A DNA stretch of 64,000 nucleotides from an uncultured Clostridia bacterium (GTDB lineage Bacteria > Bacillota > Dehalobacteriia > UBA4068 > CALXSR01). The translations under genes and the position numbers were made by a program. Positions 5,363 to 56,435 of this stretch are shown here, in pieces. The DNA is taken from contig CALXSR010000010.1 of NCBI GenBank assembly GCA_944391215.1, positions 28,547 through 92,546 on the forward strand. Direction: 5' to 3'. The notes beneath the pieces are model-generated. The model was not told the DNA's origin and searched no databases. It saw only the letters and a list, made by a program, of their open reading frames with translations. Numbering within the stretch: the stretch's first letter is position 1; each line of letters opens with the position of its first letter.

Positions 5363-6679
5363 TTACCAAGGCAAGGGCTGTCTGGAAAAATTCTCCCCCT
5401 GCAAGCGGTCAAGAATAATGGCAGCCGCGGAACGCACCGAAAGATGATTATACGGACCTTGCCCATAAATTGGCCGCAAATGAAAATCGCAAGAAGCAAT
5501 CATTTCATCTGTTAAGCCCCAGCCTGTTCCAAACAAAAGCAAATAATTGCCGCCTTTTTCTCGCATTTGTTTCCGCATGGTCGGATAATCCATCATTTTA
5601 TCATTTGGTTTGGCGCTCGTAGAAATAAGATATAATGGCGCATCGTTTTTTTGTTTTATTTCTATCAACGCTTCCGATAAATCAGCAATCAAACGAACGC
5701 AGGATACCGCTTCATGGCGGTCCGGATTATAAGCGCCGCCAAACCCATCCTGCCAATGGCCAATTAACTGTCCAATCAATGCTCTTTGACTTTCCCCCGG
5801 TTGCACAATAAAATAGTTTTCCACGCCAAAGGTTACCGCCGAGCGGGCAATATCATGCAAATCCAAATTGGTTAAAGAAGTATTGATAATTTGTTTCTTT
5901 TTATTATAAACCGGATAATGCAATAAGGCCACATATAATCGGTAAGGCTTTTCTTTCTCCTGCCTTACCTTTTGTAAATATACCATATCGTCTTGCGTTA
6001 AAGGGGCCTGTTCTAACAAATCCGGTCTTCTTTCCAAAGTCACCTTCAAACTTTCCTGTCGTCGATATTGGGCAATTTCTTTATGATTTCCGTTTAATAA
6101 AGGTTGCGGCACACTTTTCCCCCGAAATTCCGGCGGCCGAGTATATTGCGGATATTCCAATAAACCGGCGCTAAAACTTTCTTCCTCCGCCGATGCTTCA
6201 TCGCCTAAAACCCCAGGTATCAACCGAACAATACTTTCTACCATCGCCATCGTTGGAATTTCCCCGCCGGTTAATACAAAATCACCAATCGACAAAATAT
6301 CGGTAGCCAATTCTTCCTCTACTCTTTGATCAATGCCCTCATAATGTCCACATATAAAAATCAACTGCTCGGCTTCACGCAATTCCCGCGCTTTTTGTTG
6401 GGTAAAAAGTTCCCCCCGCGGGCTGGTAATAATAACACGCGTCTTCCCCTTTTTTTGCATACAATCTTCCACAGCGGCAAAAATAGGCTCCGGTTTCATT
6501 ACCATGCCAGCTCCACCGCCATATAAACGGTCATCCGTAATTTGATGTTTATCGGTTGTATAATCGCGAATATTCGTTATTTGAATTTCTGCCAATCCTT
6601 TATTTTGCGCCCTTTTCATCATACTTTCTTGCAAAGGGCCAAACATGGCTGGAAACAAAGTCAAAATATCAATACGCAT
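5363..6679 (-). CDS. trmD: tRNA (guanine37-N1)-methyltransferase TrmD fused in frame to a C-terminal second SPOUT-like methyltransferase domain
   Basis: Residues 1 to about 240 are TrmD (MRIDILTLFP...GGGAGMVM...GHYEGIDQR). Residues about 250 to 438 carry a separate knotted-methyltransferase-like tail ending LSVRSAAAIILDRL. Single uninterrupted ORF. Confidence 0.85.
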   Translation of the reverse strand: MRIDILTLFPAMFGPLQESMMKRAQNKGLAEIQITNIRDYTTDKHQITDDRLYGGGAGMVMKPEPIFAAVEDCMQKKGKTRVIITSPRGELFTQQKARELREAEQLIFICGHYEGIDQRVEEELATDILSIGDFVLTGGEIPTMAMVESIVRLIPGVLGDEASAEEESFSAGLLEYPQYTRPPEFRGKSVPQPLLNGNHKEIAQYRRQESLKVTLERRPDLLEQAPLTQDDMVYLQKVRQEKEKPYRLYVALLHYPVYNKKKQIINTSLTNLDLHDIARSAVTFGVENYFIVQPGESQRALIGQLIGHWQDGFGGAYNPDRHEAVSCVRLIADLSEALIEIKQKNDAPLYLISTSAKPNDKMMDYPTMRKQMREKGGNYLLLFGTGWGLTDEMIASCDFHLRPIYGQGPYNHLSVRSAAAIILDRLQGENFSRQPLPW

Positions 6680-6688
6680 GCTTTTCTC

Positions 6689-7192
6689 CTATTCCATTAA
6701 GCCTTGTGGTAATTGTACCATCATTTTTTGATTTTCTACATCAATTTCATGGATAAATTCTTTTATTGCCGGTATCATAAAGGTTTTACCGTTTTCTTGC
6801 TCTACCACATAATAGTCCGTCCCGCCGCGACTATCAATTGCTATTATCTTTCCTAATAGTATTTCCTTTTGACAAACCGCCATCCCAATCAACTGAAAAT
6901 GATAATAACTACCTTCTGGTAAAACAGGCAAATCGGTTTTATCAACCAATAAATAGGAAGGGCAAGCCTTTTCCGCATCATTGCGATCTGGCAGTTCCTC
7001 AAAGGATAATAAAAGCCCGCCTTTATAGGGTTCACTTTGTAGTATCGTTACATATTGTTGTGTTTTTTCTAAAAAAAGACGAGTGCCTTTTTGAAAACGG
7101 GCTGGATTATCGCTAATACATTCCACTTTAACCTGCCCTTTTATTCCATGAACACCGTAAATACGTCCTACGATGATAGTTTCCTTTTTCAT
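6689..7192 (-). CDS. rimM: 16S rRNA processing protein RimM
   Basis: MKKETIIVGRIYGVHGIKGQVKV is the RimM N-terminus, with a PRC barrel at the C-terminus. Start re-called to ATG 7192. The ORF-track 34-aa Lys/Arg-rich extension overlaps the upstream MFS gene end and is rejected. Confidence 0.85.
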   Translation of the reverse strand: MKKETIIVGRIYGVHGIKGQVKVECISDNPARFQKGTRLFLEKTQQYVTILQSEPYKGGLLLSFEELPDRNDAEKACPSYLLVDKTDLPVLPEGSYYHFQLIGMAVCQKEILLGKIIAIDSRGGTDYYVVEQENGKTFMIPAIKEFIHEIDVENQKMMVQLPQGLME

Positions 7193-7205
7193 CCGTTTCC
7201 CCTTT

Positions 7206-8453
7206 TTATTCCGTTTTTTCTTGCGTCCGATACCGCAACGAAGCCTTTTGCGCGATTCGGAATACCATAAAAATAACAACTGCGATAGCAGCATAACATA
7301 ATAACATAAAACGATAACTTCCAGTTAAATCATAACTAAAATTTAATAATGGCGCCCCGCAGGCCACCCCGGCGGCCAGCGTTGCCAAAAAAATACCCAC
7401 TATGGTGGAATATCCTTTTAAACCAAATAAATCCGTTGCCAAAAAAGTAATAATTAAAGTTTCTAAAGGCAAAGAAAAGCCCAAAAGCAAGGCATAGGCA
7501 ATGGCCATCCATTCTGTTTTTGCAAAAGCCAAAAATAAAATTGCTGCCAAATAGGCAATAATGCAAATTAGCATACTGGTATGTAAATTCCATTTATCAT
7601 AAATCCAGCCAATACTTAATTTAGCAAAAGCCAAAGACAAATAAACCATACCGGAAATACCTGCCGCAAAGTGCACATCAAAACCCCTATCGGTTAAATG
7701 TGCCGGGGCGGAAAGTACAACCGGGTTGGTAATTAAACCAATTAAAAAAATAAGCAAAACAGTCAAATAAAAATATGGCTGATGAAAAGCCTCTTTGGCA
7801 CTTGAGCCCTGCCAATAGGCAGTTTTTGTGGTTTTCTCCTTGCTATTTTCCAATCCATAAGCAACCAGTCCCTTGTCTGCAGGATGATTACGAACCAATA
7901 ATAAAATCGGAACCATAGCACAAAGCATAATCATGCTAGATATCAAATAAGATTGTCGCCAACCCATATCGGCAATCCAGTTTCCTACCAACATATTAAA
8001 AAGAAAGCCCCCAACACCGCTGCCGGCAAAAATAAGACCTAAAATGGTTCCCCTATGTTTTGCAAACCAATTATTGATCAAGCTGGAAATTACGGCAGTA
8101 GAGGCAAAAGAAAATGCTGCCCCTAATAAAATACCGCCAACATAAAAAAGCGGTAATTGAGCGGCAATAGAAAATAAAAACATGGCGCCTGCAGCAAACA
8201 GCATTCCAATAGACATCATTTTATGCATACCAAAAATGCCCACCAGGAAACCAAAAGAGAGGTTTAAAATTACCGAAGTGACAGAGCGTAAACTATGCGT
8301 AATGGAATAAGCGCCTCGGGTAAATCCAAGCGACTCCGTAATTGGAGTCACATAAAGACCATTTGGAGAATTTCCTAAGCCCAATAAAACAAAAGAGCTA
8401 ATAAAACAGGCTAAAACCACAAACCACCCATAAAAAACCTTTTTTTGTTTCAT
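7206..8453 (-). CDS. MFS transporter, 12 TM, oxalate/formate-antiporter-like; substrate unknown
   Basis: 415 aa polytopic protein of MFS architecture. Lies between the KH-domain gene and rimM inside the rpsP operon. Confidence 0.8.
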   Translation of the reverse strand: MKQKKVFYGWFVVLACFISSFVLLGLGNSPNGLYVTPITESLGFTRGAYSITHSLRSVTSVILNLSFGFLVGIFGMHKMMSIGMLFAAGAMFLFSIAAQLPLFYVGGILLGAAFSFASTAVISSLINNWFAKHRGTILGLIFAGSGVGGFLFNMLVGNWIADMGWRQSYLISSMIMLCAMVPILLLVRNHPADKGLVAYGLENSKEKTTKTAYWQGSSAKEAFHQPYFYLTVLLIFLIGLITNPVVLSAPAHLTDRGFDVHFAAGISGMVYLSLAFAKLSIGWIYDKWNLHTSMLICIIAYLAAILFLAFAKTEWMAIAYALLLGFSLPLETLIITFLATDLFGLKGYSTIVGIFLATLAAGVACGAPLLNFSYDLTGSYRFMLLCYAAIAVVIFMVFRIAQKASLRYRTQEKTE

Positions 8454-37487: not shown

Positions 37488-39385
37488 TATGAAAAAACAC
37501 CTTGTTTTTAACCAATATTTTTGTTTACGCCATTATTATCTTTGGCTTTATCATTACCTTTCTTATTAGTTATCATTCGAATAAGGGAATCTTTGAACAA
37601 GATATTGAATATATATCCACCTTCTTAACTGCGGAAGGGATTTATCACCGCATTGATTCCATTTTTACCAAACCAATTAATATTTCTTTGACCATCGCCA
37701 ATGATAATTTATTAAAAAGTTTTTTGGCCGAAGAGGAACAAGATGCAAATAATCCTTTTTTCAAAGACGATGCAAAACTATCTACACGCCTATAAAAAGA
37801 AATATCACTACGATTCCGTATTTTTAGTCTTCACCAAAACCAATCGCTATTATCATTTTAATGGGATCGATCGTATGATTACCCCTAATAATCCGGAAAA
37901 CGATTGGTATTATACCTTCTTAGAAAACAACCAAGAATATACTTTAAACATTGATAATGACGAAGCAGCTAATAATGAAATTACCGTTTTTATTAACTGC
38001 AAGCTAGAAGATAATGCCGGCAATATGATCGGCGTGGTTGGCATCGGTTTTCAAGTAGATTATTTACAAGAAATATTTCAACAATATGAAAAAGATTTCG
38101 GAATCAAAGCCTTTCTTGTAGATCAACAAGGAACCATTCAAATATCTACCCACCAAACAGGTTATCAAAAAACCGATTTGTTTTCTATTTGCCCTTACCA
38201 CCAATTAAAAAAACAAATTTTAGGTAGCCAGACAGGAGAGCAATCCCTCTGGGCCTCCGCCAACGGCTGGAACGGCTATTTGGTTACACATTATGTTCCG
38301 AATTTAAATCCGTATTTATCATTGAAAATGATACCTCTGCCATCTCTGCTGCCTTAAATAAGCAGTTCTATATCGGCGTGATGATAATTATATTTGTCAT
38401 TATTTTAGTATTATTTACCATAATCAGTATTATCCGCAAATATAATGCACAAATTGCGCGCTTAACTGTTACCGAAGAAAAAACATAATGCTATTTTCCA
38501 GACCGAAACAGAAAAAATTTACGAAAATATTTATGAAATTGACATTACCCATAACAGAGCCGCCTCCGAAGCAACAAAACAATATTTCTCTAGCTTAGGC
38601 ATACCTAAAAATACACCGTATGATCAGGCTTTACAATTTATTGCACAAAAACAGGTAAAAGAAGAATTCCAAGCCGGTTATCTTTTCACTTTCAGCCCAG
38701 AACATATTTTACAAGTTTATCAGGATGGAAAAGATACCCTAAGTTATGATTTTATGTTTACCAACGACAATGGGGAACATTATTACTGGATACGCATTAC
38801 CGTACGCATTTTCTATTGGGATGAAGATAAATCAGTAAGCATGTTCGTTTATCGACAAAATATTGACAGCAGCAAAAGACAGGAACAAGAAATGGTAGAA
38901 AAATGGAGAAAGACTCCTTAACCGATTTATATAATAAAGCGGCCACCCAAAAACATGTTCAGGAACTTTTAAGTAAAAACCCCAATGATTCTTTTGCTTT
39001 TTTCTTTTTAGATATTGATGAATTTAAAAAGGTAAACGACACATATGATCATATCACAGGCGATAAAGCAATCAGCGATTTTGCCAAAATATTGAAAAGT
39101 CAATTTATAGCAAATGGCATTGCAGGAAGAATTGGTGGAGATGAATTTGTTGTTTTTCTTGCTGTTCCCTCGCGCGAATGGACTGATAAAAAAGCCCAAA
39201 GTTTGATGTCTGCATTAAGGCATGATTTTATCACAGGCAATCAAATATGCAGAATCACTCCCAGTATTGGGATAGCTATTGCCCCACAAGCCGGAAAAGA
39301 CTTTGAAACATTATACCATAATGCGGACATTGCCTTATACCAAACCAAGCATAAAGGGAAAAATGGCTTTACAATTTATGAATAG
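37488..39385 (+). pseudogene. Sensor diguanylate cyclase (TM, Cache-like periplasmic domain, TM, PAS-like, GGDEF) disrupted by about five frameshifts or stops
   Basis: Consecutive ORF fragments 37488-, 37502-37795, 37743-38357, about 38300-38488, about 38490-38915 and 38903-39385 together encode one continuous architecture. The last fragment carries RIGGDEFVV (GGDEF). Four of five breaks are at homopolymer runs (T5 near 37500, T6 near 37760, A6 near 38480, A5 near 38910); the break near 38300 was not pinned to a run. RBS GAAGGTG before ATG 37488. Intact bidirectional terminator at 39400..39439. Confidence 0.65.
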
Positions 39386-39399
39386 CCCATCATTGAAAA

Positions 39400-39439
39400 A
39401 TAAAAAGGAGAAGCAAAGTTTGCTTCTCCTTTTTATTTT
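39400..39439. terminator. Bidirectional terminator between the GGDEF locus and the DUF4491-like gene
   Basis: aaaa aggagaagcaaa g tttgcttctcct ttttatttt. Confidence 0.75.
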
Positions 39440-39717
39440 CGGTTGGGATTTTTAGGAAACCAACCTTTTTTTACCCGTTCTTCCTGTTCTATTAACTCAT
39501 GAATACTCCACAAACACGAAAAACCAATTAAACCAAAAATACAAGCCACTTGCCAGGAATTAGCCCAAAGGGAAGCGAGCAAAAACAAAATACCCGATAA
39601 CAAAAAAAACGGCCAAACCTTTTTTCCCCAATAATATTCCGTTTTTATAACAATAGGATGGAAAATACCAATAATCAGAAAAGAAACGGCGCCTATGATA
39701 ATACCATTATAATTCAT
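39433..39717 (-). CDS. Small membrane protein (DUF4491-like), 94 aa
   Basis: Three predicted TM helices and a basic C-terminus. Family call tentative. Confidence 0.5.
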   Translation of the reverse strand: MNYNGIIIGAVSFLIIGIFHPIVIKTEYYWGKKVWPFFLLSGILFLLASLWANSWQVACIFGLIGFSCLWSIHELIEQEERVKKGWFPKNPNRK

Positions 39718-39728
39718 ATGACATCCCC

Positions 39729-40202
39729 TTACGCTTGCATATTACGCAACAAATTGGCCATTTCAATCGCCGAAACTGCCGCATCATATCCTTTATTGCC
39801 TGCTTTACTCCCAGCTCTCTCAATCGCCTGTTCAATATTATCGGTGGTAATAACGCCAAAAATGACCGGTTTGCCACTTTGCAAACTCACCTGCGCAATG
39901 CCTTTGGAAACTTCCGCAGCGACATAATCAAAATGCGGCGTATTGCCACGGATGACGGCCCCCAAACAAATCACAGCGTCATATTCTTTTGCTGCCGCCA
40001 TTTGGGCAGCCAAAGGAATTTCAAAAGCACCCGGTACTTTTATAATATCAACATCATTTTCTACATCTACGCTATGCCTTGTTAAAGCGTCCATAGCGCC
40101 AGATAACAATTTTCCCGTAATAAAATCATTAAAACGACTCACAACAATGGCAATTTTTAGCTGGTTGGCAACTAATTTTCCTTCAAATATTTGCATTTTC
40201 AT
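39729..40202 (-). CDS. ribH: 6,7-dimethyl-8-ribityllumazine synthase
   Basis: [21 protein letters not shown] and ICLGAVIRG... are canonical RibH motifs. Confidence 0.9.
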
Positions 40203-40216
40203 TCCTCTTTCCTTTT

Positions 40217-41428
40217 TTATTTTCCAATTTCCGAGATATCTAATAAATGACCCATTTTATCTTGTTTGGTTTGCATATAAAAGGCATTTTTATCATTTGG
40301 AGGAATAATAATAGGCACCCGTTCCACTACCTTTAAGCCATAGCCTTCTAAACCATGTATTTTTTTGGGATTATTGGTCATCAAACGAATTTCTTTCGCA
40401 CCCAAGTCTACTAAAATTTGGGCTCCAATACCATAATCGCGCAAATCAGCCGGGAAACCTAATTTTAAATTCGCTTCTACAGTATCAAGTCCTTTATCTT
40501 GCAAATTATAACATTTTAATTTATTTACTAAACCGATACCGCGACCTTCTTGTCGCATATACAAAATAATACCGCGGCCTTCTTTTTCCACCATACGCAT
40601 AGCCGTTTGCAACTGTGCCCCGCAATCGCAGCGCAAACTACCAAAAACGTCTCCCGTTAAACATTCCGAATGCACCCTTACTAAAACCGGGCCCCCTTCA
40701 GCAATATCGCCTTTAACCAAAGCGATATGGTTTTCCTTATCTACGTCATTCCCATAAGCAATACAGCGGAAATTGCCAAAGGCAGTGGGCAATTCCACTT
40801 CCACCTGACGATGCACCAATTTATCCGTACGCATGCGATAAGCAATCAAATCCGCAACGCTAATTAAATGAATCCCATGTTTTTCAGCAAAAACCATTAA
40901 ATCCTTTACCCGGGCCATGGTACCATCCTCGTTTACAACCTCGCAAATAACAGAAGCGGGATATAAACCAGCCAATTTTACTAAATCAATAGAAGCTTCC
41001 GTATGTCCGGCCCTTTCCAAAACGCCGCCGTCTTTGGCCCGCAAGGGAAACATATGACCCGGCTTAATCATATCTTCTGGTTGGGTATTGGGGTCTATCA
41101 AAGCCTTTACCGTAGCCGCTCTTTCAAAGGCGGAAATGCCGGTTGTTGAATCTGGCCCATCTACCGATACCGTAAAAGCCGTACAATGACGATCATTATT
41201 TTTACTAACCATTGCCGGTAACTTTAATTCGTCCAAACGTGCACTAGTTAAAGGTACGCAAACCAAACCTTTGGCATGGGTAATCATAAAATTAATCGCC
41301 GCGGCATCCGCTTTTTCAGCAGCAATTACCAAATCCCCTTCTGCTTCTCTATTTTCATCGTCTGCGACAATTACCATTTTTCCGTTTTTAATATCGACAA
41401 TCGCTGTTTCAATATCTACAAAGCCCAT
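40217..41428 (-). CDS. ribBA: Bifunctional 3,4-dihydroxy-2-butanone-4-phosphate synthase / GTP cyclohydrolase II
   Basis: 403 aa. DHBP synthase N-terminal half (REAEGDLV) and GTP cyclohydrolase II C-terminal half (CDCG zinc motif). Confidence 0.9.
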
Positions 41429-43221: not shown

Positions 43222-43425
43222 CTTCTTCTCTATAAAAAAATCCCCGTTCAACAACGGGGATAGATCGCATAAACAAGAAAAGCAACTTTAAAAAGCTACT
43301 TTCTCCTTCTTTCATCCAGACTTTTACTGTCGACTTCGGAATTACACCGAATCCTGCCAAATTTTGGCTCGCGGGTTATACCGCCGATAGGGAATTACAC
43401 CCATCCCCGAAGGCAAATATAGAAT
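43222..43425 (-). promoter_or_regulatory. FMN riboswitch (RFN element) with intrinsic terminator, controlling ribD-ribE-ribBA-ribH
   Basis: Minus strand: CTTCGGGGATGGGTGTAATTCCCTATCGGCGGTATAACCCGCGAGCC...GGCAGGATTCGGTGTAATTCCGAAGTCGACAGTAAAAGTCTGGATGAAAGAAGGAG matches the conserved RFN core. It is followed by a CCCCGTTGTTGAACGGGGATTTTTTT terminator. Confidence 0.9.
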
Positions 43426-54566: not shown

Positions 54567-54926
54567 TTAGTTTTTTGGTTTAAAAACCAAAGCCCCTAAA
54601 AAGGAAAAAATAATCGCCGCTGAAATGCCAGCGCTAGTAATATCAAAAATACCGGTTAAAATACCTACCAAACCATGAAATTCATATTCTGCTAAAGCAC
54701 CCTTTAATAAGGAATTGCCAAAACTGCAAATCGGTACGCTAGCACCAGCACCAGCAAAAGCAATCAACTTATCGTACCAACCCAAACCGCCTAGAATAGC
54801 ACCAACAACCACTAAAGTACACATGGCATGGCCTGGCGTTAAATTTAACACATCCATCAACAGTTGCCCAACTACACAAATAGCGCCACCAACCAAAAAA
54901 GCCCACAAAAACTGTTGCCATTCCAT
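54567..54926 (-). CDS. spoVAEb: Stage V sporulation protein AE, C-terminal-type (SpoVAEb)
   Basis: Start re-called to MEWQQF (119 aa). Small polytopic membrane protein, last gene of a C-D-Eb gene order. Its start overlaps the spoVAD stop. Confidence 0.65.
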
Positions 54927-55939
54927 TATGCATTTCCTCCTTTTTGCAAACAAACCGCATGAGAAATCCCTGCAATACTTTCCTTTTGTTGATAAGTTAA
55001 AGGAGAAAACAAAGCACCGCTGGCGGCAACTAATACTTTTTGCCAAATTCCGCTACGAATATTATTATAGATATAGCCAAAGGTAACGGAAGCCACACAA
55101 CCTGCCCCGGAACCGCCGCAGAATGCATCTTGATCAGCATGATAGATTTTTAAGCCACAATCCATAAATTTACTCGGTTCTATCGTATAATTTCCTTTTT
55201 CTTTTAGCATATCCAAGGCAATTCTTTGGCCAATTTGTCCCAAATCTCCCGTTACGATCATATCGTAATCCTCAGGTTTACTTTTTGTTTCTCGCAAATG
55301 GGCACAAATCGTATCTACTACGGCCGGAGCCATGGCCGAACCCAAATCGGTTGGATCTGTAATTCCCATATCCACCACTCTACCAATGGTTACACTGGGA
55401 ATAAAAACATCGGTATCACCACCATAACCAACCATAGCCGCGCCCGCTGCCGTAACCGTTCTTTGACAAGTAGGCGCCTTTTGAATACCGTACTCATTGG
55501 GATAACGAAATTCTTTCTCTGCACTGTTCATATGGCTAGAAGCCGCTACCAAAACCCGGCTAGCAGCCCTGCTATTTACCATCAGCGCTGCTAAACTTAA
55601 AGCCTCCATCGTAGTAGCGCAAGCGGCAAAAAGACCAAAAAACGGAATATCCAAAGTGCGTGCGGTATAGTTAGAAGCTACAATTTGATTTTGCAAATCG
55701 CCAGCAATAAAAAAGTCTGGTTTTTTACCAGCTTTTTTTATAGCTAAATAAGCCGCATCTTCTTGTAATTTCTGTTCTGCTTTCTCGAAACTTTCTTTCC
55801 CTACCCATTGATTATCATAAAGCAAATCAAAACTATTTTTTAAAGCGCCTTTTGCCTCTTCCGGTCCGCCAATAGCAGCCCCGGATAAGAGCATAGGCGG
55901 TTGATCAAAAACCCATGTTTGCTTTCCTTTTAATTGCAT
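54926..55939 (-). CDS. spoVAD: Stage V sporulation protein AD (thiolase-like fold)
   Basis: About 337 aa from [11 protein letters not shown] with an AGGAG RBS. Cys-containing condensing-enzyme-like fold typical of SpoVAD. Position between spoVAC and spoVAEb. Confidence 0.8.
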
Positions 55940-55952
55940 ATGATTCGCTCCT

Positions 55953-56435
55953 TTAAAAATCGATCCCCACGTAAATTTTAAGCAAAACCTTGATAATAGC
56001 AATAATAAAAGCCGAAACCACGCCAAAGCAAATTACCGATCCGGCTAATTTAAACATATTGCTGCCAACACCCAAAACCAGCCCTTCTGTTCTATACTCT
56101 AAAGCAGAAGAAGCCATAGAATTGGCAAAACCAGTAATGGGTACCGCCGTGCCGCCCCCGGCCCATTGCGCCAATTTATCATACACGCCAATTCCTGTTA
56201 AAATGACTGATACAAAAATTAACACAGCCACTGTAGGATTGCCCGCTGTATCTTTGGTAAAATCAAAATAGGTAATAAAAAAAACTTGTAAAAACTGGCC
56301 AATTAAACAAATCAAACCACCGGCTACAAAAGCATGCCAACAATGTTTCCAAATCGGTTTTTTTTCTCCATGCTTTTTGGCATAAGCCGCATATTCCTTT
56401 TTTTCTTTTTCACTGGCGATACTCAAAAAGCTCAT
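55953..56435 (-). CDS. spoVAC: Stage V sporulation protein AC
   Basis: 160 aa, four TM helices. First gene of the spoVA C-D-Eb cluster. AAAAGGAG RBS. Confidence 0.75.
   Translation of the reverse strand: MSFLSIASEKEKKEYAAYAKKHGEKKPIWKHCWHAFVAGGLICLIGQFLQVFFITYFDFTKDTAGNPTVAVLIFVSVILTGIGVYDKLAQWAGGGTAVPITGFANSMASSALEYRTEGLVLGVGSNMFKLAGSVICFGVVSAFIIAIIKVLLKIYVGIDF

What the first reader, a model, noticed from the sequence alone, without database searches (positions are those of the whole stretch)
37488..39385. Sensor diguanylate cyclase gene (Cache-like, PAS, GGDEF) broken into five or more frames, all breaks at or apparently at homopolymer runs
The fragments make up one complete signalling protein that appears recently inactivated, or else mis-sequenced.
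- Five or six consecutive ORF fragments on the plus strand reconstruct a single architecture: N-terminal TM, periplasmic Cache-like sensor, second TM, PAS-like domain, and a C-terminal GGDEF domain with an intact RIGGDEFVV motif.
- Four of the five breaks map to short homopolymer tracts: T5 near 37500, T6 near 37760, A6 near 38480 (where deleting one A restores TEEKHNAIFQTE...), and A5 near 38910. The break near 38300 was not pinned to a run.
- Coding potential, the RBS and a bidirectional terminator are all intact.
- Neighbouring long genes (smc 1193 aa, recG 766 aa, priA 739 aa) are uninterrupted, which argues against general poor sequence quality.
- The alternatives are a genuine pseudogene lost in this lineage, or homopolymer-biased sequencing errors concentrated in this AT-rich gene.
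Basis: seen in the sequence. Interest (0 to 1): 0.6.

Follow-up and report, generated by a model that had tools for sequence, protein, structure and literature searches.

The report
Decayed diguanylate cyclase pseudogene, real frameshifts
This is a genuine, recently dead copy of an ordinary membrane sensor enzyme that makes the bacterial signal c-di-GMP; the five frameshifts recur in independent assemblies, so they are real mutations and not sequencing errors, and the case is an ordinary pseudogene.

Summary
Window 37489-39385 (+) is one gene for a TM / dCache_1 / TM / PAS-fold / GGDEF diguanylate cyclase. Five single-base frame breaks interrupt it. Five one-base corrections give a 632-aa ORF with no stop codon, which matches full-length homologues (632-645 aa) end to end at about 60% identity.

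The breaks are not sequencing errors. Seven other assemblies of the same species, with several distinct SNP haplotypes and short-read-style contig names, carry the same indels. One low-coverage contig has T5 instead of T6 at break 2.

A 94%-identical relative (L006) lacks breaks 2, 3 and 5 and has A7 where the window has A6. This shows stepwise decay.

The window branch also carries 16 replacements at family-conserved residues, against 2 in the relative. These include two conserved GGDEF-domain glycines and both RxxD I-site residues.

A syntenic sister lineage has 54 nt where the window has this 2.2-kb, low-GC cassette. The gene was therefore probably acquired horizontally and then lost.

Break 3 is an AA-to-A deletion at 38318.

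The case is ordinary and of low interest.

The parts
37247..39431 (+). 2.2-kb lineage-specific cassette (promoter, broken DGC gene, terminator). It lies between a conserved 76-aa ORF and the DUF4491 gene.
   Evidence: The flanks 36005-37246 and 39432-40290 align to sister locus L012, where only 54 nt separate them. GC is 33.5% against 40.1% for the window. It includes the lowest-GC kilobase of the window.
37377..37404 (+). Promoter-like site TAGACA-16-TATAAT
   Evidence: Matches 11 of 12 consensus positions. This is a consensus match only.
37477..37491 (+). Ribosome-binding site AAGGTG and start codon ATG (37489-91)
   Evidence: Read directly from the sequence. The family N-terminus MK(K)N aligns here.
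37492..37497 (+). Break 1: A6 run (in frame would be A5 or A8)
   Evidence: With A5 the product starts MKNTLFLTNIFVY, matching the family's MKNNILLRTN / MKKNILLKTN. The closest homologue has ATGAAAAAC. The state is identical in L003, L006, L007 and L010.
37498..37755 (+). Fragment encoding TM1 (37514-37573) and the start of dCache_1
   Evidence: Frame-2 translation. Pfam dCache_1 covers residues 47-220.
37756..37761 (+). Break 2: T6 run
   Evidence: The window is 2 bp shorter here than L006, which reads NNPVFLQTMQNYL in frame. L011 has T5, which is in frame. Six other assemblies have T6.
37762..38316 (+). Fragment encoding most of the dCache_1 sensor
   Evidence: This is the 204-aa ORF 37743-38357. 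The repaired L006 protein matches the McpH dCache domain 8bmv at E 2.7e-25.
38317..38319 (+). Break 3: one-base deletion (TTAATC to TTATC)
   Evidence: Alignment to L006, which reads NLNWYLIIENDTS in frame. The deletion is present in all 8 window-species assemblies that cover the site.
38320..38477 (+). Fragment encoding the end of dCache and TM2 (38366-38434)
   Evidence: Frame-2 translation.
38478..38483 (+). Break 4: A6 run (in frame would be A5 or A8; L006 has A7)
   Evidence: The family spacing TV-xxxxx-H favours an ancestral A8, reading TEEKKH.
38484..38898 (+). Fragment encoding the cytoplasmic PAS-fold domain
   Evidence: The AlphaFold model has pLDDT 87.5, and all top PDB matches are PAS domains. 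There is no Pfam hit.
38899..38903 (+). Break 5: A5 run (L006 has A6 and is in frame, reading EKMEKDSLTGLYN)
38904..39385 (+). Fragment encoding the GGDEF domain. GGDEF is at 39134-39148. Degenerate positions are LTDLYN (38915-35), YDH (39041-52) and IANG in place of the RxxD I-site (39107-18).
   Evidence: Pfam GGDEF E 8.6e-34. Polarised substitutions G480D, G521D, R541I and D544G. Coordinates.
39397..39439 (.). Bidirectional terminator hairpin shared with the convergent DUF4491 gene
   Evidence: Arms of 21 nt, 100% complementary, flanked by A and T runs.

Best explanation
The region is a genuine pseudogene of a membrane-bound sensor diguanylate cyclase. The domain order is TM, periplasmic dCache_1, TM, cytoplasmic PAS-fold domain, GGDEF.

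**Origin.** The gene sits on a 2.2-kb, low-GC cassette with its own promoter and terminator. The cassette lies between two convergent conserved genes in an uncultured spore-forming Bacillota lineage. It was most likely acquired horizontally from Clostridia-like bacteria (inferred).

**Inactivation.** The gene was disabled by replication-slippage indels in short A/T runs, plus one non-run single-base deletion (shown).

**Decay since then.** The window lineage now carries five frame breaks. It also carries many replacements at residues that are invariant in the family, including two conserved GGDEF-domain glycines and both residues of the RxxD inhibitory site (shown). It cannot make a full-length cyclase by normal translation (inferred).

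**Timing.** The decay is recent (inferred from three observations): the promoter, ribosome-binding site and terminator are intact; there are no nonsense codons; and a 94%-identical relative is still in frame at three of the five sites.
For: 1. **One gene.** Five single-base edits give a 632-aa ORF. It has 436 homologues, the best at 61% identity and 100% coverage with lengths of 632-645 aa. Pfam finds dCache_1 and GGDEF, and the middle domain has a PAS fold.

2. **The indels are real.**
 - L003 (NCBI MAG GCA_947853085.1), L004 and L007-L011 (ENA assemblies from different samples) are 99.4-99.9% identical to the window.
 - They show distinct SNP patterns and no gaps at the break sites. The one exception is T5 in L011.

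3. **Stepwise decay.** L006 (Logan SRR13292351, 94.4% identity) is in frame at breaks 2, 3 and 5. It has A7 where the window has A6 at break 4.

4. **Relaxed constraint on the window branch.**
 - At positions at least 80% conserved in 60 homologues there are 16 derived replacements in the window against 2 in L006. They include W274P, G480D, G521D, R541I and D544G.
 - Within-species SNPs in the gene are 8 nonsynonymous to 4 synonymous. The flanking genes show about 13 to 21.
 - SNP density against L003 is 9 in 1.9 kb inside the gene, against 37 in 18.7 kb outside it.

5. **Slippage signature.** Four of the five breaks lie in A/T runs of 5 or more bases, which cover only 7.4% of the gene (P = 1.4e-4).

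6. **Lineage-specific insertion.**
 - Sister locus L012 keeps the order ribH, DUF4491, small ORF, rpmB, Asp23, fakA, recG, with 54 nt in place of the cassette.
 - Cassette GC is 33.5% against 40.1% for the window.
 - The named best hits for the cyclase are Clostridia (Anaerovorax odorimutans, an uncultured Eubacterium sp.) and a Bilophila sp. MAG, at 56-58% identity.
 - RecG's best named relatives are different taxa at 51% identity or less.
Against: - dN/dS between the window and L006 is 0.19. Most of their divergence therefore happened under purifying selection. This fits recent inactivation, but it would also fit a gene that is still occasionally used.
- The repaired frame has no nonsense codon, although 5% of random substitutions would create one.
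- The expression signals are intact.
- Tract lengths vary (T5/T6 within the species, A6/A7 between lineages), which is also what a phase-variable gene would show.
- No intact allele of more than 61% identity exists in the 5.8-billion-protein collection. It therefore cannot be shown that an intact copy ever functioned in this species.
- The horizontal-transfer claim rests on one sister locus, base composition and hit taxonomy. No phylogeny was built, and deletion in the sister lineage is not excluded.
- Some supporting contigs have low coverage (1.7x and 3.1x by their names).
Confidence: 0.9

Rival explanations
1. Sequencing or assembly artefact: homopolymer lengths were miscalled in an AT-rich gene, and the real gene is intact and functional.
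For: Four of the five breaks are in A/T runs of 5-6 bases. One low-coverage contig (L011) has a different length at one run.
Against: - The same indel states appear in seven other assemblies from different samples with different SNP haplotypes. Their contig names are in MEGAHIT/SPAdes style, which suggests short-read data (inference from the names).
- Break 3 is not in a run.
- The window lineage also has 16 replacements at conserved residues, which indel errors cannot explain.
- About 60 other genes in the window are intact.
Confidence: 0.02
2. Phase-variable (contingency) gene, or recoding: the homopolymer tracts switch the cyclase on and off by slippage, or ribosomal or transcriptional slippage restores the frame. 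Under this reading the gene is still used.
For: - Tract-length polymorphism: T6 against T5 (L011), and A6 against A7 (L006) at a tract whose in-frame state is A5 or A8.
- The long-term dN/dS is 0.19 and there are no nonsense codons.
- In L006, a -1 slip on the A7 tract (A AAA AAA C) would restore the frame at that break (reasoned from the sequence).
Against: - The window needs five simultaneous corrections of both signs. One of them (38318) is a non-repeat deletion that slippage cannot revert.
- No fully in-frame allele was seen in any assembly.
- Tracts of 5-6 bases are short for phase variation (general knowledge of contingency loci).
- All 120 listed homologues are full-length proteins of about 595-771 aa, called as single ORFs, so the frameshifts are not a conserved feature.
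- Catalytically important residues have been replaced.
Confidence: 0.05
3. Functional split products: one or more fragments, for example the 160-aa GGDEF ORF at 38903-39385 that starts with ATG, are still expressed and active as stand-alone proteins.
For: The last fragment starts with ATG, contains a complete GGDEF domain with an intact GGDEF motif, and ends at the original terminator.
Against: - There is no convincing ribosome-binding site before 38903 (read).
- The fragment lacks the sensor and dimerising parts that GGDEF cyclases need (established knowledge of PleD/WspR-type enzymes).
- It carries G-to-D changes in the conserved LTGLYN and YGH motifs.
- Six of the 8 nonsynonymous within-species SNPs fall in or just before it.
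Confidence: 0.03

Closest known systems
Sensor domain-containing diguanylate cyclases of Clostridia (P0001 at 61% identity; the Anaerovorax odorimutans protein P0023 at 58%; the uncultured Eubacterium protein P0026 at 57%)
   Same: Same length (632-645 aa) and same TM / dCache_1 / TM / PAS-fold / GGDEF order.
   Different: Those are single intact ORFs. The window copy has five frame breaks and 16 replacements at conserved positions. It also sits in an unrelated Bacillota genome, at a locus where the sister lineage has no such gene.
PleD/WspR-type GGDEF cyclases with an RxxD inhibitory site (PDB 1w25, 3bre)
   Same: The GGDEF domain matches at E 1e-17 to 1e-19. The relative L006 keeps RAND five residues before GGDEF, and the family consensus keeps RxxD.
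   Different: The window has IANG instead of RxxD, and has D for the conserved G in the LTGL and YGH motifs. The input domains differ: dCache and PAS here, receiver domains there.
dCache_1 ligand-binding domains of chemoreceptors (Pseudomonas McpH, PDB 8bmv)
   Same: The periplasmic region, residues 47-289 of the repaired L006 protein, aligns to residues 38-273 of the solved domain at E 2.7e-25.
   Different: The output is a cyclase, not a chemoreceptor signalling domain. The ligand is unknown. In the window the domain is cut by breaks 2 and 3, and it has W274P.
Decay of c-di-GMP signalling genes in other bacteria (for example the pseudogenised cyclase and phosphodiesterase genes described in Yersinia pestis and Shigella; recalled from memory, not checked here)
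   Same: An accessory signalling gene is lost by frameshift while the neighbouring housekeeping genes stay intact.
   Different: There is no evidence here that the loss is adaptive or linked to a change of lifestyle. The organism is known only from metagenomes.
Homopolymer-tract contingency (phase-variable) loci
   Same: The frameshifts are at A/T runs whose length differs between strains or lineages.
   Different: There are several simultaneous breaks, one of them irreversible. The tracts are short, and no ON allele was observed.

Membership tests
GGDEF diguanylate cyclase (PF00990) | Full-length match to the GGDEF domain profile | tested here: met
   E 8.6e-34, 117 bits against a cut-off of 23.8, profile positions 4-160 of 161. 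There are many PDB cyclase matches.
GGDEF diguanylate cyclase (PF00990) | GG(D/E)EF active-site motif | tested here: met
   RIGGDEFVV is present, with GGDEF encoded at 39134-39148.
GGDEF diguanylate cyclase (PF00990) | Conserved structural and substrate-region residues (LTGLxN, D-x-Y/F-G-H) and the RxxD I-site typical of this subfamily | tested here: not met
   The window has LTDLYN, YDH and IANG. The relative L006 has G, G and RAND. In the 60 homologues those G, G, R and D positions are 82-100% conserved.
GGDEF diguanylate cyclase (PF00990) | Uninterrupted reading frame able to give a functional enzyme | tested here: not met
   Five frame breaks, reproduced in independent assemblies.
GGDEF diguanylate cyclase (PF00990) | c-di-GMP synthesis activity | not testable with these tools
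   This needs an enzyme assay of a repaired or native product.
dCache_1 sensor (PF02743) | Profile match above the gathering score, located between two TM helices | tested here: met
   59.9 bits against a cut-off of 45. The repaired L006 protein matches McpH 8bmv. The hydrophobic segments are at 37514-37573 and 38366-38434.
PAS domain | Sequence-profile match to a PAS family | tested here: not met
   No Pfam PAS hit even at E up to 10, for the window and for two homologues.
PAS domain | PAS fold (five-stranded antiparallel sheet flanked by helices) | tested here: met
   The model has pLDDT 87.5 and pTM 0.79. All 50 listed Foldseek PDB hits are PAS or LOV domains, with best E 1.8e-4 and TM 0.5-0.6.
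Bacterial pseudogene | Disabling mutations relative to intact homologues | tested here: met
   Five frameshifts relative to 120 listed full-length homologues and to L006.
Bacterial pseudogene | Mutations are real (reproduced independently), not assembly errors | tested here: met
   Seven other assemblies with distinct SNP haplotypes share them.
Bacterial pseudogene | Signature of relaxed selection | tested here: met
   Derived changes at conserved sites are 16 in the window against 2 in L006. Within-species SNPs are 8 nonsynonymous to 4 synonymous, against about 13 to 21 in the flanks. The SNP counts are small.
Bacterial pseudogene | No functional product | not testable with these tools
   This needs transcript and protein data.
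Phase-variable contingency locus | Repeat tract whose length varies, giving both ON and OFF alleles in the population | tested here: not met
   Length variation is seen (T5/T6, A6/A7). No allele is in frame throughout, and break 3 is not in a repeat.
Programmed frameshift / recoding | Frameshift site conserved among homologues, with a slippery motif and a single direction | tested here: not met
   The listed homologues are full-length proteins called as single ORFs. The window needs both +1 and -1 corrections.

The most novel reading that the evidence does not exclude
In the ancestor and in the L006-like lineage, the cyclase is a slippage-controlled (phase-variable or recoded) gene. Its A-tracts, one directly after the start codon and one at the TM2/PAS junction, would toggle c-di-GMP synthesis. 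The window copy would then be a switch that became locked OFF and decayed. The perfect hairpin that buries the ribosome-binding site and start codon would be part of that control.
Probability: 0.05. Interest if true: 0.4.

Novelty: already known. Interest (0 to 1): 0.15.

Why it matters
It matters mainly for annotation. The four to six short ORFs called here in public MAG annotations (97, 204, 150 and 160 aa) should be merged and flagged as one pseudogene. They should not be counted as a working c-di-GMP cyclase or as 'hypothetical proteins'.

The locus is also a clean small example of gene gain followed by stepwise loss. There is a low-GC insertion between convergent genes and a relative with fewer breaks. 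A/T-run slippage is the dominant inactivating mutation, and replacements at catalytic and regulatory residues then accumulate.

It opens no new biological question.

Tried and rejected
Deleting a T there also restores a frame. I rejected it in favour of the A6 run for three reasons:
 - The conserved N of the family's MK(K)N N-terminus is already in the downstream frame.
 - The closest homologue has ATGAAAAAC.
 - My first attempt to repair the run as A7 was an arithmetic error and gave garbage. A5 or A8 is the correct in-frame length.

2. **GTDB representative genomes, scanned for close relatives.** Only a 40%-identity hit (L005) was found, so the species is not represented there with this gene.

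3. **JGI metagenome contigs.** Nothing was found.

4. **Search for intermediate relatives (67-90% identity), using the dCache fragment.** None were found.

5. **Mobile-element signatures (terminal direct or inverted repeats) at the cassette borders.** None were convincing.

6. **Known RNA elements near the gene.** The only Rfam hit is the FMN riboswitch of the rib operon.

7. **The apparently open upstream start MNKKVFLWKNT... in ENA protein P0130.** The DNA is identical to the window at that codon, so its W is a TGA. This is probably a genetic-code choice by the gene caller and not a real variant.

8. **Other possible broken genes in the window (overlapping ORFs at 6689-8453 and 54567-56435).** They are intact, separate genes.

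Full report
**What is there.** On the + strand between 37489 and 39385 the three reading frames each carry pieces of one protein. Joining them needs five single-base corrections. The result is a 632-aa ORF with no internal stop.

Pfam finds dCache_1 (59.9 bits, cut-off 45) and GGDEF (E 8.6e-34, nearly the whole profile). A search of 5.8 billion proteins gives 436 homologues.

Two hydrophobic segments bracket the Cache domain, at 37514-37573 and 38366-38434.

The 135 residues between TM2 and GGDEF have no Pfam or PDB sequence match. An AlphaFold model built on 40 sequences (pLDDT 87.5) matches only PAS and LOV domains in the PDB: FixL, TodS PAS1 and DosP, with E about 2e-4 and TM 0.5-0.6.

**Where the breaks are.** A related contig, L006 (see below), lets each break be placed exactly.

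- **B1** is the A6 run at 37492-97, directly after the ATG.
  - The family N-terminus is MK(K)N-hydrophobic, and the closest homologue's gene starts ATGAAAAAC.
- A5 gives MKNTLFLTNIFVY.
- **B2** is the T6 run at 37756-61. The window is 2 bp shorter than L006 here, and T5 would be in frame.
- **B3** is the loss of one A at 38318 (TTAATC to TTATC), which is not a long run.
- **B4** is the A6 run at 38478-83. In frame would be A5 or A8, and the family spacing favours A8.
- **B5** is the A5 run at 38899-903, which is A6 in L006.

A/T runs of 5 or more bases cover 7.4% of the gene. Four of five breaks falling in them has P = 1.4e-4. This is the signature of slippage.

**Real mutation or sequencing error.** Exact-sequence look-ups of the fragments found the same locus in other public assemblies:

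| Locus | Source |
|---|---|
| L003 | NCBI MAG GCA_947853085.1 |
| L004, L007, L008, L009, L010, L011 | six ENA metagenome assemblies |
| L006 | a Logan assembly |

Seven of them (L003, L004 and L007-L011) are 99.4-99.9% identical to the window across the gene. They differ from it and from each other by SNPs, so they are independent genomes. They have no gap at any break they cover. The single exception is L011, whose name gives coverage of about 3x, with T5 at B2.

Each break is covered by 3 to 7 of these seven. Their contig names (k87_, k141_, NODE_..._cov_) suggest short-read assemblers; this is my inference from the names. Elsewhere in the window the long genes are intact. Two suspicious ORF overlaps resolve into complete SpoVAC/AD/AEB and RimM/MFS genes. 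Sequencing error is therefore excluded for practical purposes.

**Decay in steps.** L006 is 94.4% identical to the window.

- It reads through B2 (NNPVFLQTMQNYL), B3 (NLNWYLIIENDTS) and B5 (EKMEKDSLTGLYN).
- At B4 it has A7, which is also out of frame but differs from the window's A6.
- At B1 it is identical to the window.

Over 615 comparable codons, dN/dS between the two is 0.19 (dS 0.167; 54 synonymous and 46 nonsynonymous differences). Most of their divergence therefore happened while the gene was under purifying selection.

I polarised the amino-acid differences with 60 homologues. At positions at least 80% conserved in the family, the window carries the derived state 16 times and L006 only twice. 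The window changes include:

- S114F, W274P, T312I and R451S;
- G480D, in the LTGLYN motif;
- G521D, in the YGH motif;
- R541I and D544G, which are the two residues of the RxxD inhibitory site.

Within the species, SNPs in the gene are 8 nonsynonymous to 4 synonymous. The flanking genes show about 13 to 21. SNP density against L003 is about twice that of the flanks. These counts are small, but they point the same way.

The absence of nonsense codons is not surprising for a young pseudogene, because only 5% of random substitutions create a stop.

**Where the gene came from.** The genome is an uncultured spore-former: SASP, GPR protease, and spoVA and spoIIIA genes are present. It has no close cultured relative. 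RecG is 67% identical to one ENA contig, 54% to a 'Bacillota bacterium' MAG, and 51% or less to named genera.

The 67% relative, L012, has the same gene order: ribE, ribBA, ribH, DUF4491, then a small ORF, rpmB, Asp23, fakA and recG. It has only 54 nt, a terminator hairpin, where the window has 2186 nt. Window 36005-37246 and 39432-40290 align on either side of that gap.

The inserted stretch (37247-39431) carries its own promoter-like site, ribosome-binding site and terminator. It lies on the opposite strand to nearly all its neighbours. Its GC is 33.5% against 40.1% for the window, and it includes the lowest-GC kilobase of the window.

Its best named relatives are Clostridia (Anaerovorax odorimutans, an uncultured Eubacterium sp.) and a Bilophila sp. 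MAG, at 56-58% identity. That is more similar than RecG is to any named organism. I infer horizontal acquisition followed by loss. Deletion in the sister lineage is not formally excluded, and no tree was built.

**Rivals.**

- **Phase variation or recoding.** The tract-length differences and the low long-term dN/dS suggest it. However, the window needs five corrections of both signs, including a non-repeat deletion. No in-frame allele is seen anywhere. The listed homologues are full-length proteins called as single ORFs.
- **An active stand-alone 160-aa GGDEF fragment.** This is unlikely. It has no clear ribosome-binding site, it lacks the sensor and dimerising parts, and it carries G-to-D changes in two conserved motifs. 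Most of the within-species nonsynonymous SNPs fall in or just before it.

**Verdict.** This is a recently inactivated, lineage-specific and probably horizontally acquired sensor diguanylate cyclase. It was broken by slippage in short A/T runs and is now accumulating damaging substitutions. It belongs to a well-known protein family and shows a textbook mode of decay. It is of low interest beyond correcting the annotation.

Noticed in passing
window 37478-37503 (extended arms 37472-37488 / 37493-37509): A perfect 11-bp hairpin, AAGGTGTTTTT-ATGA-AAAAACACCTT, pairs the ribosome-binding site with the first codons and puts the start codon in the loop. It is followed by GTTTTT, so it looks like a terminator or translational attenuator. 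The break-1 A run forms part of its 3' arm. It is identical in L006 and absent from the closest homologue's start region (L013).
   Followed up: partly
window 37436-37743 versus L006 131-438: Only one difference in 308 nt between the window and L006, against about 6% divergence in the rest of the gene and 5 differences in the 24 nt (37412-37435) just upstream. This could be recent recombination between the lineages or a chimeric metagenome contig. It bears on whether break 1 is truly shared.
   Followed up: partly
window 37016-37246 (+): A 76-aa ORF with no Pfam match lies inside a stretch that aligns at 79% nucleotide identity with the sister lineage, where a 72-aa ORF is called (L012 7193-7411). 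It is probably a real small gene of unknown function, directly upstream of the cassette.
   Followed up: partly
window 36695-37120 (-): A 141-aa ORF is called as a gene in the public MAG annotation (L003). It overlaps rpmB and the 76-aa ORF on the opposite strand and has no Pfam match, so it is probably a spurious call.
   Followed up: partly
window 30084 / L003 2322-2342: A 21-bp insertion/deletion between strains (TATCTATTATCTATTATCTAT, three copies of a 7-nt unit) in the intergenic region between the GPR protease gene and the MFS transporter gene.
   Followed up: no
window 39253-39277: A cluster of five polymorphic sites within 25 nt among strains (R-to-S, I-to-T and P-to-T, plus two synonymous changes), inside the GGDEF fragment.
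   Followed up: partly
window 43300-43418 (-): An FMN riboswitch (Rfam RF00050, 106.5 bits) lies upstream of the ribD-ribE-ribBA-ribH operon. This is expected and ordinary.
   Followed up: yes
window 5363-6679 (-): The ORF whose N-terminal sequence resembles TrmD is 438 aa. From memory, typical TrmD is about 250 aa, so a C-terminal extra domain may be fused.
   Followed up: no
L010 44-370 (ENA ERZ27236825): The public gene call P0130 reads the TGA at window 37490-92 as W (MNKKVFLWKNT...), although the DNA is identical to the window at that codon. It was apparently called with a TGA-as-Trp genetic code, which is an annotation artefact.
   Followed up: yes
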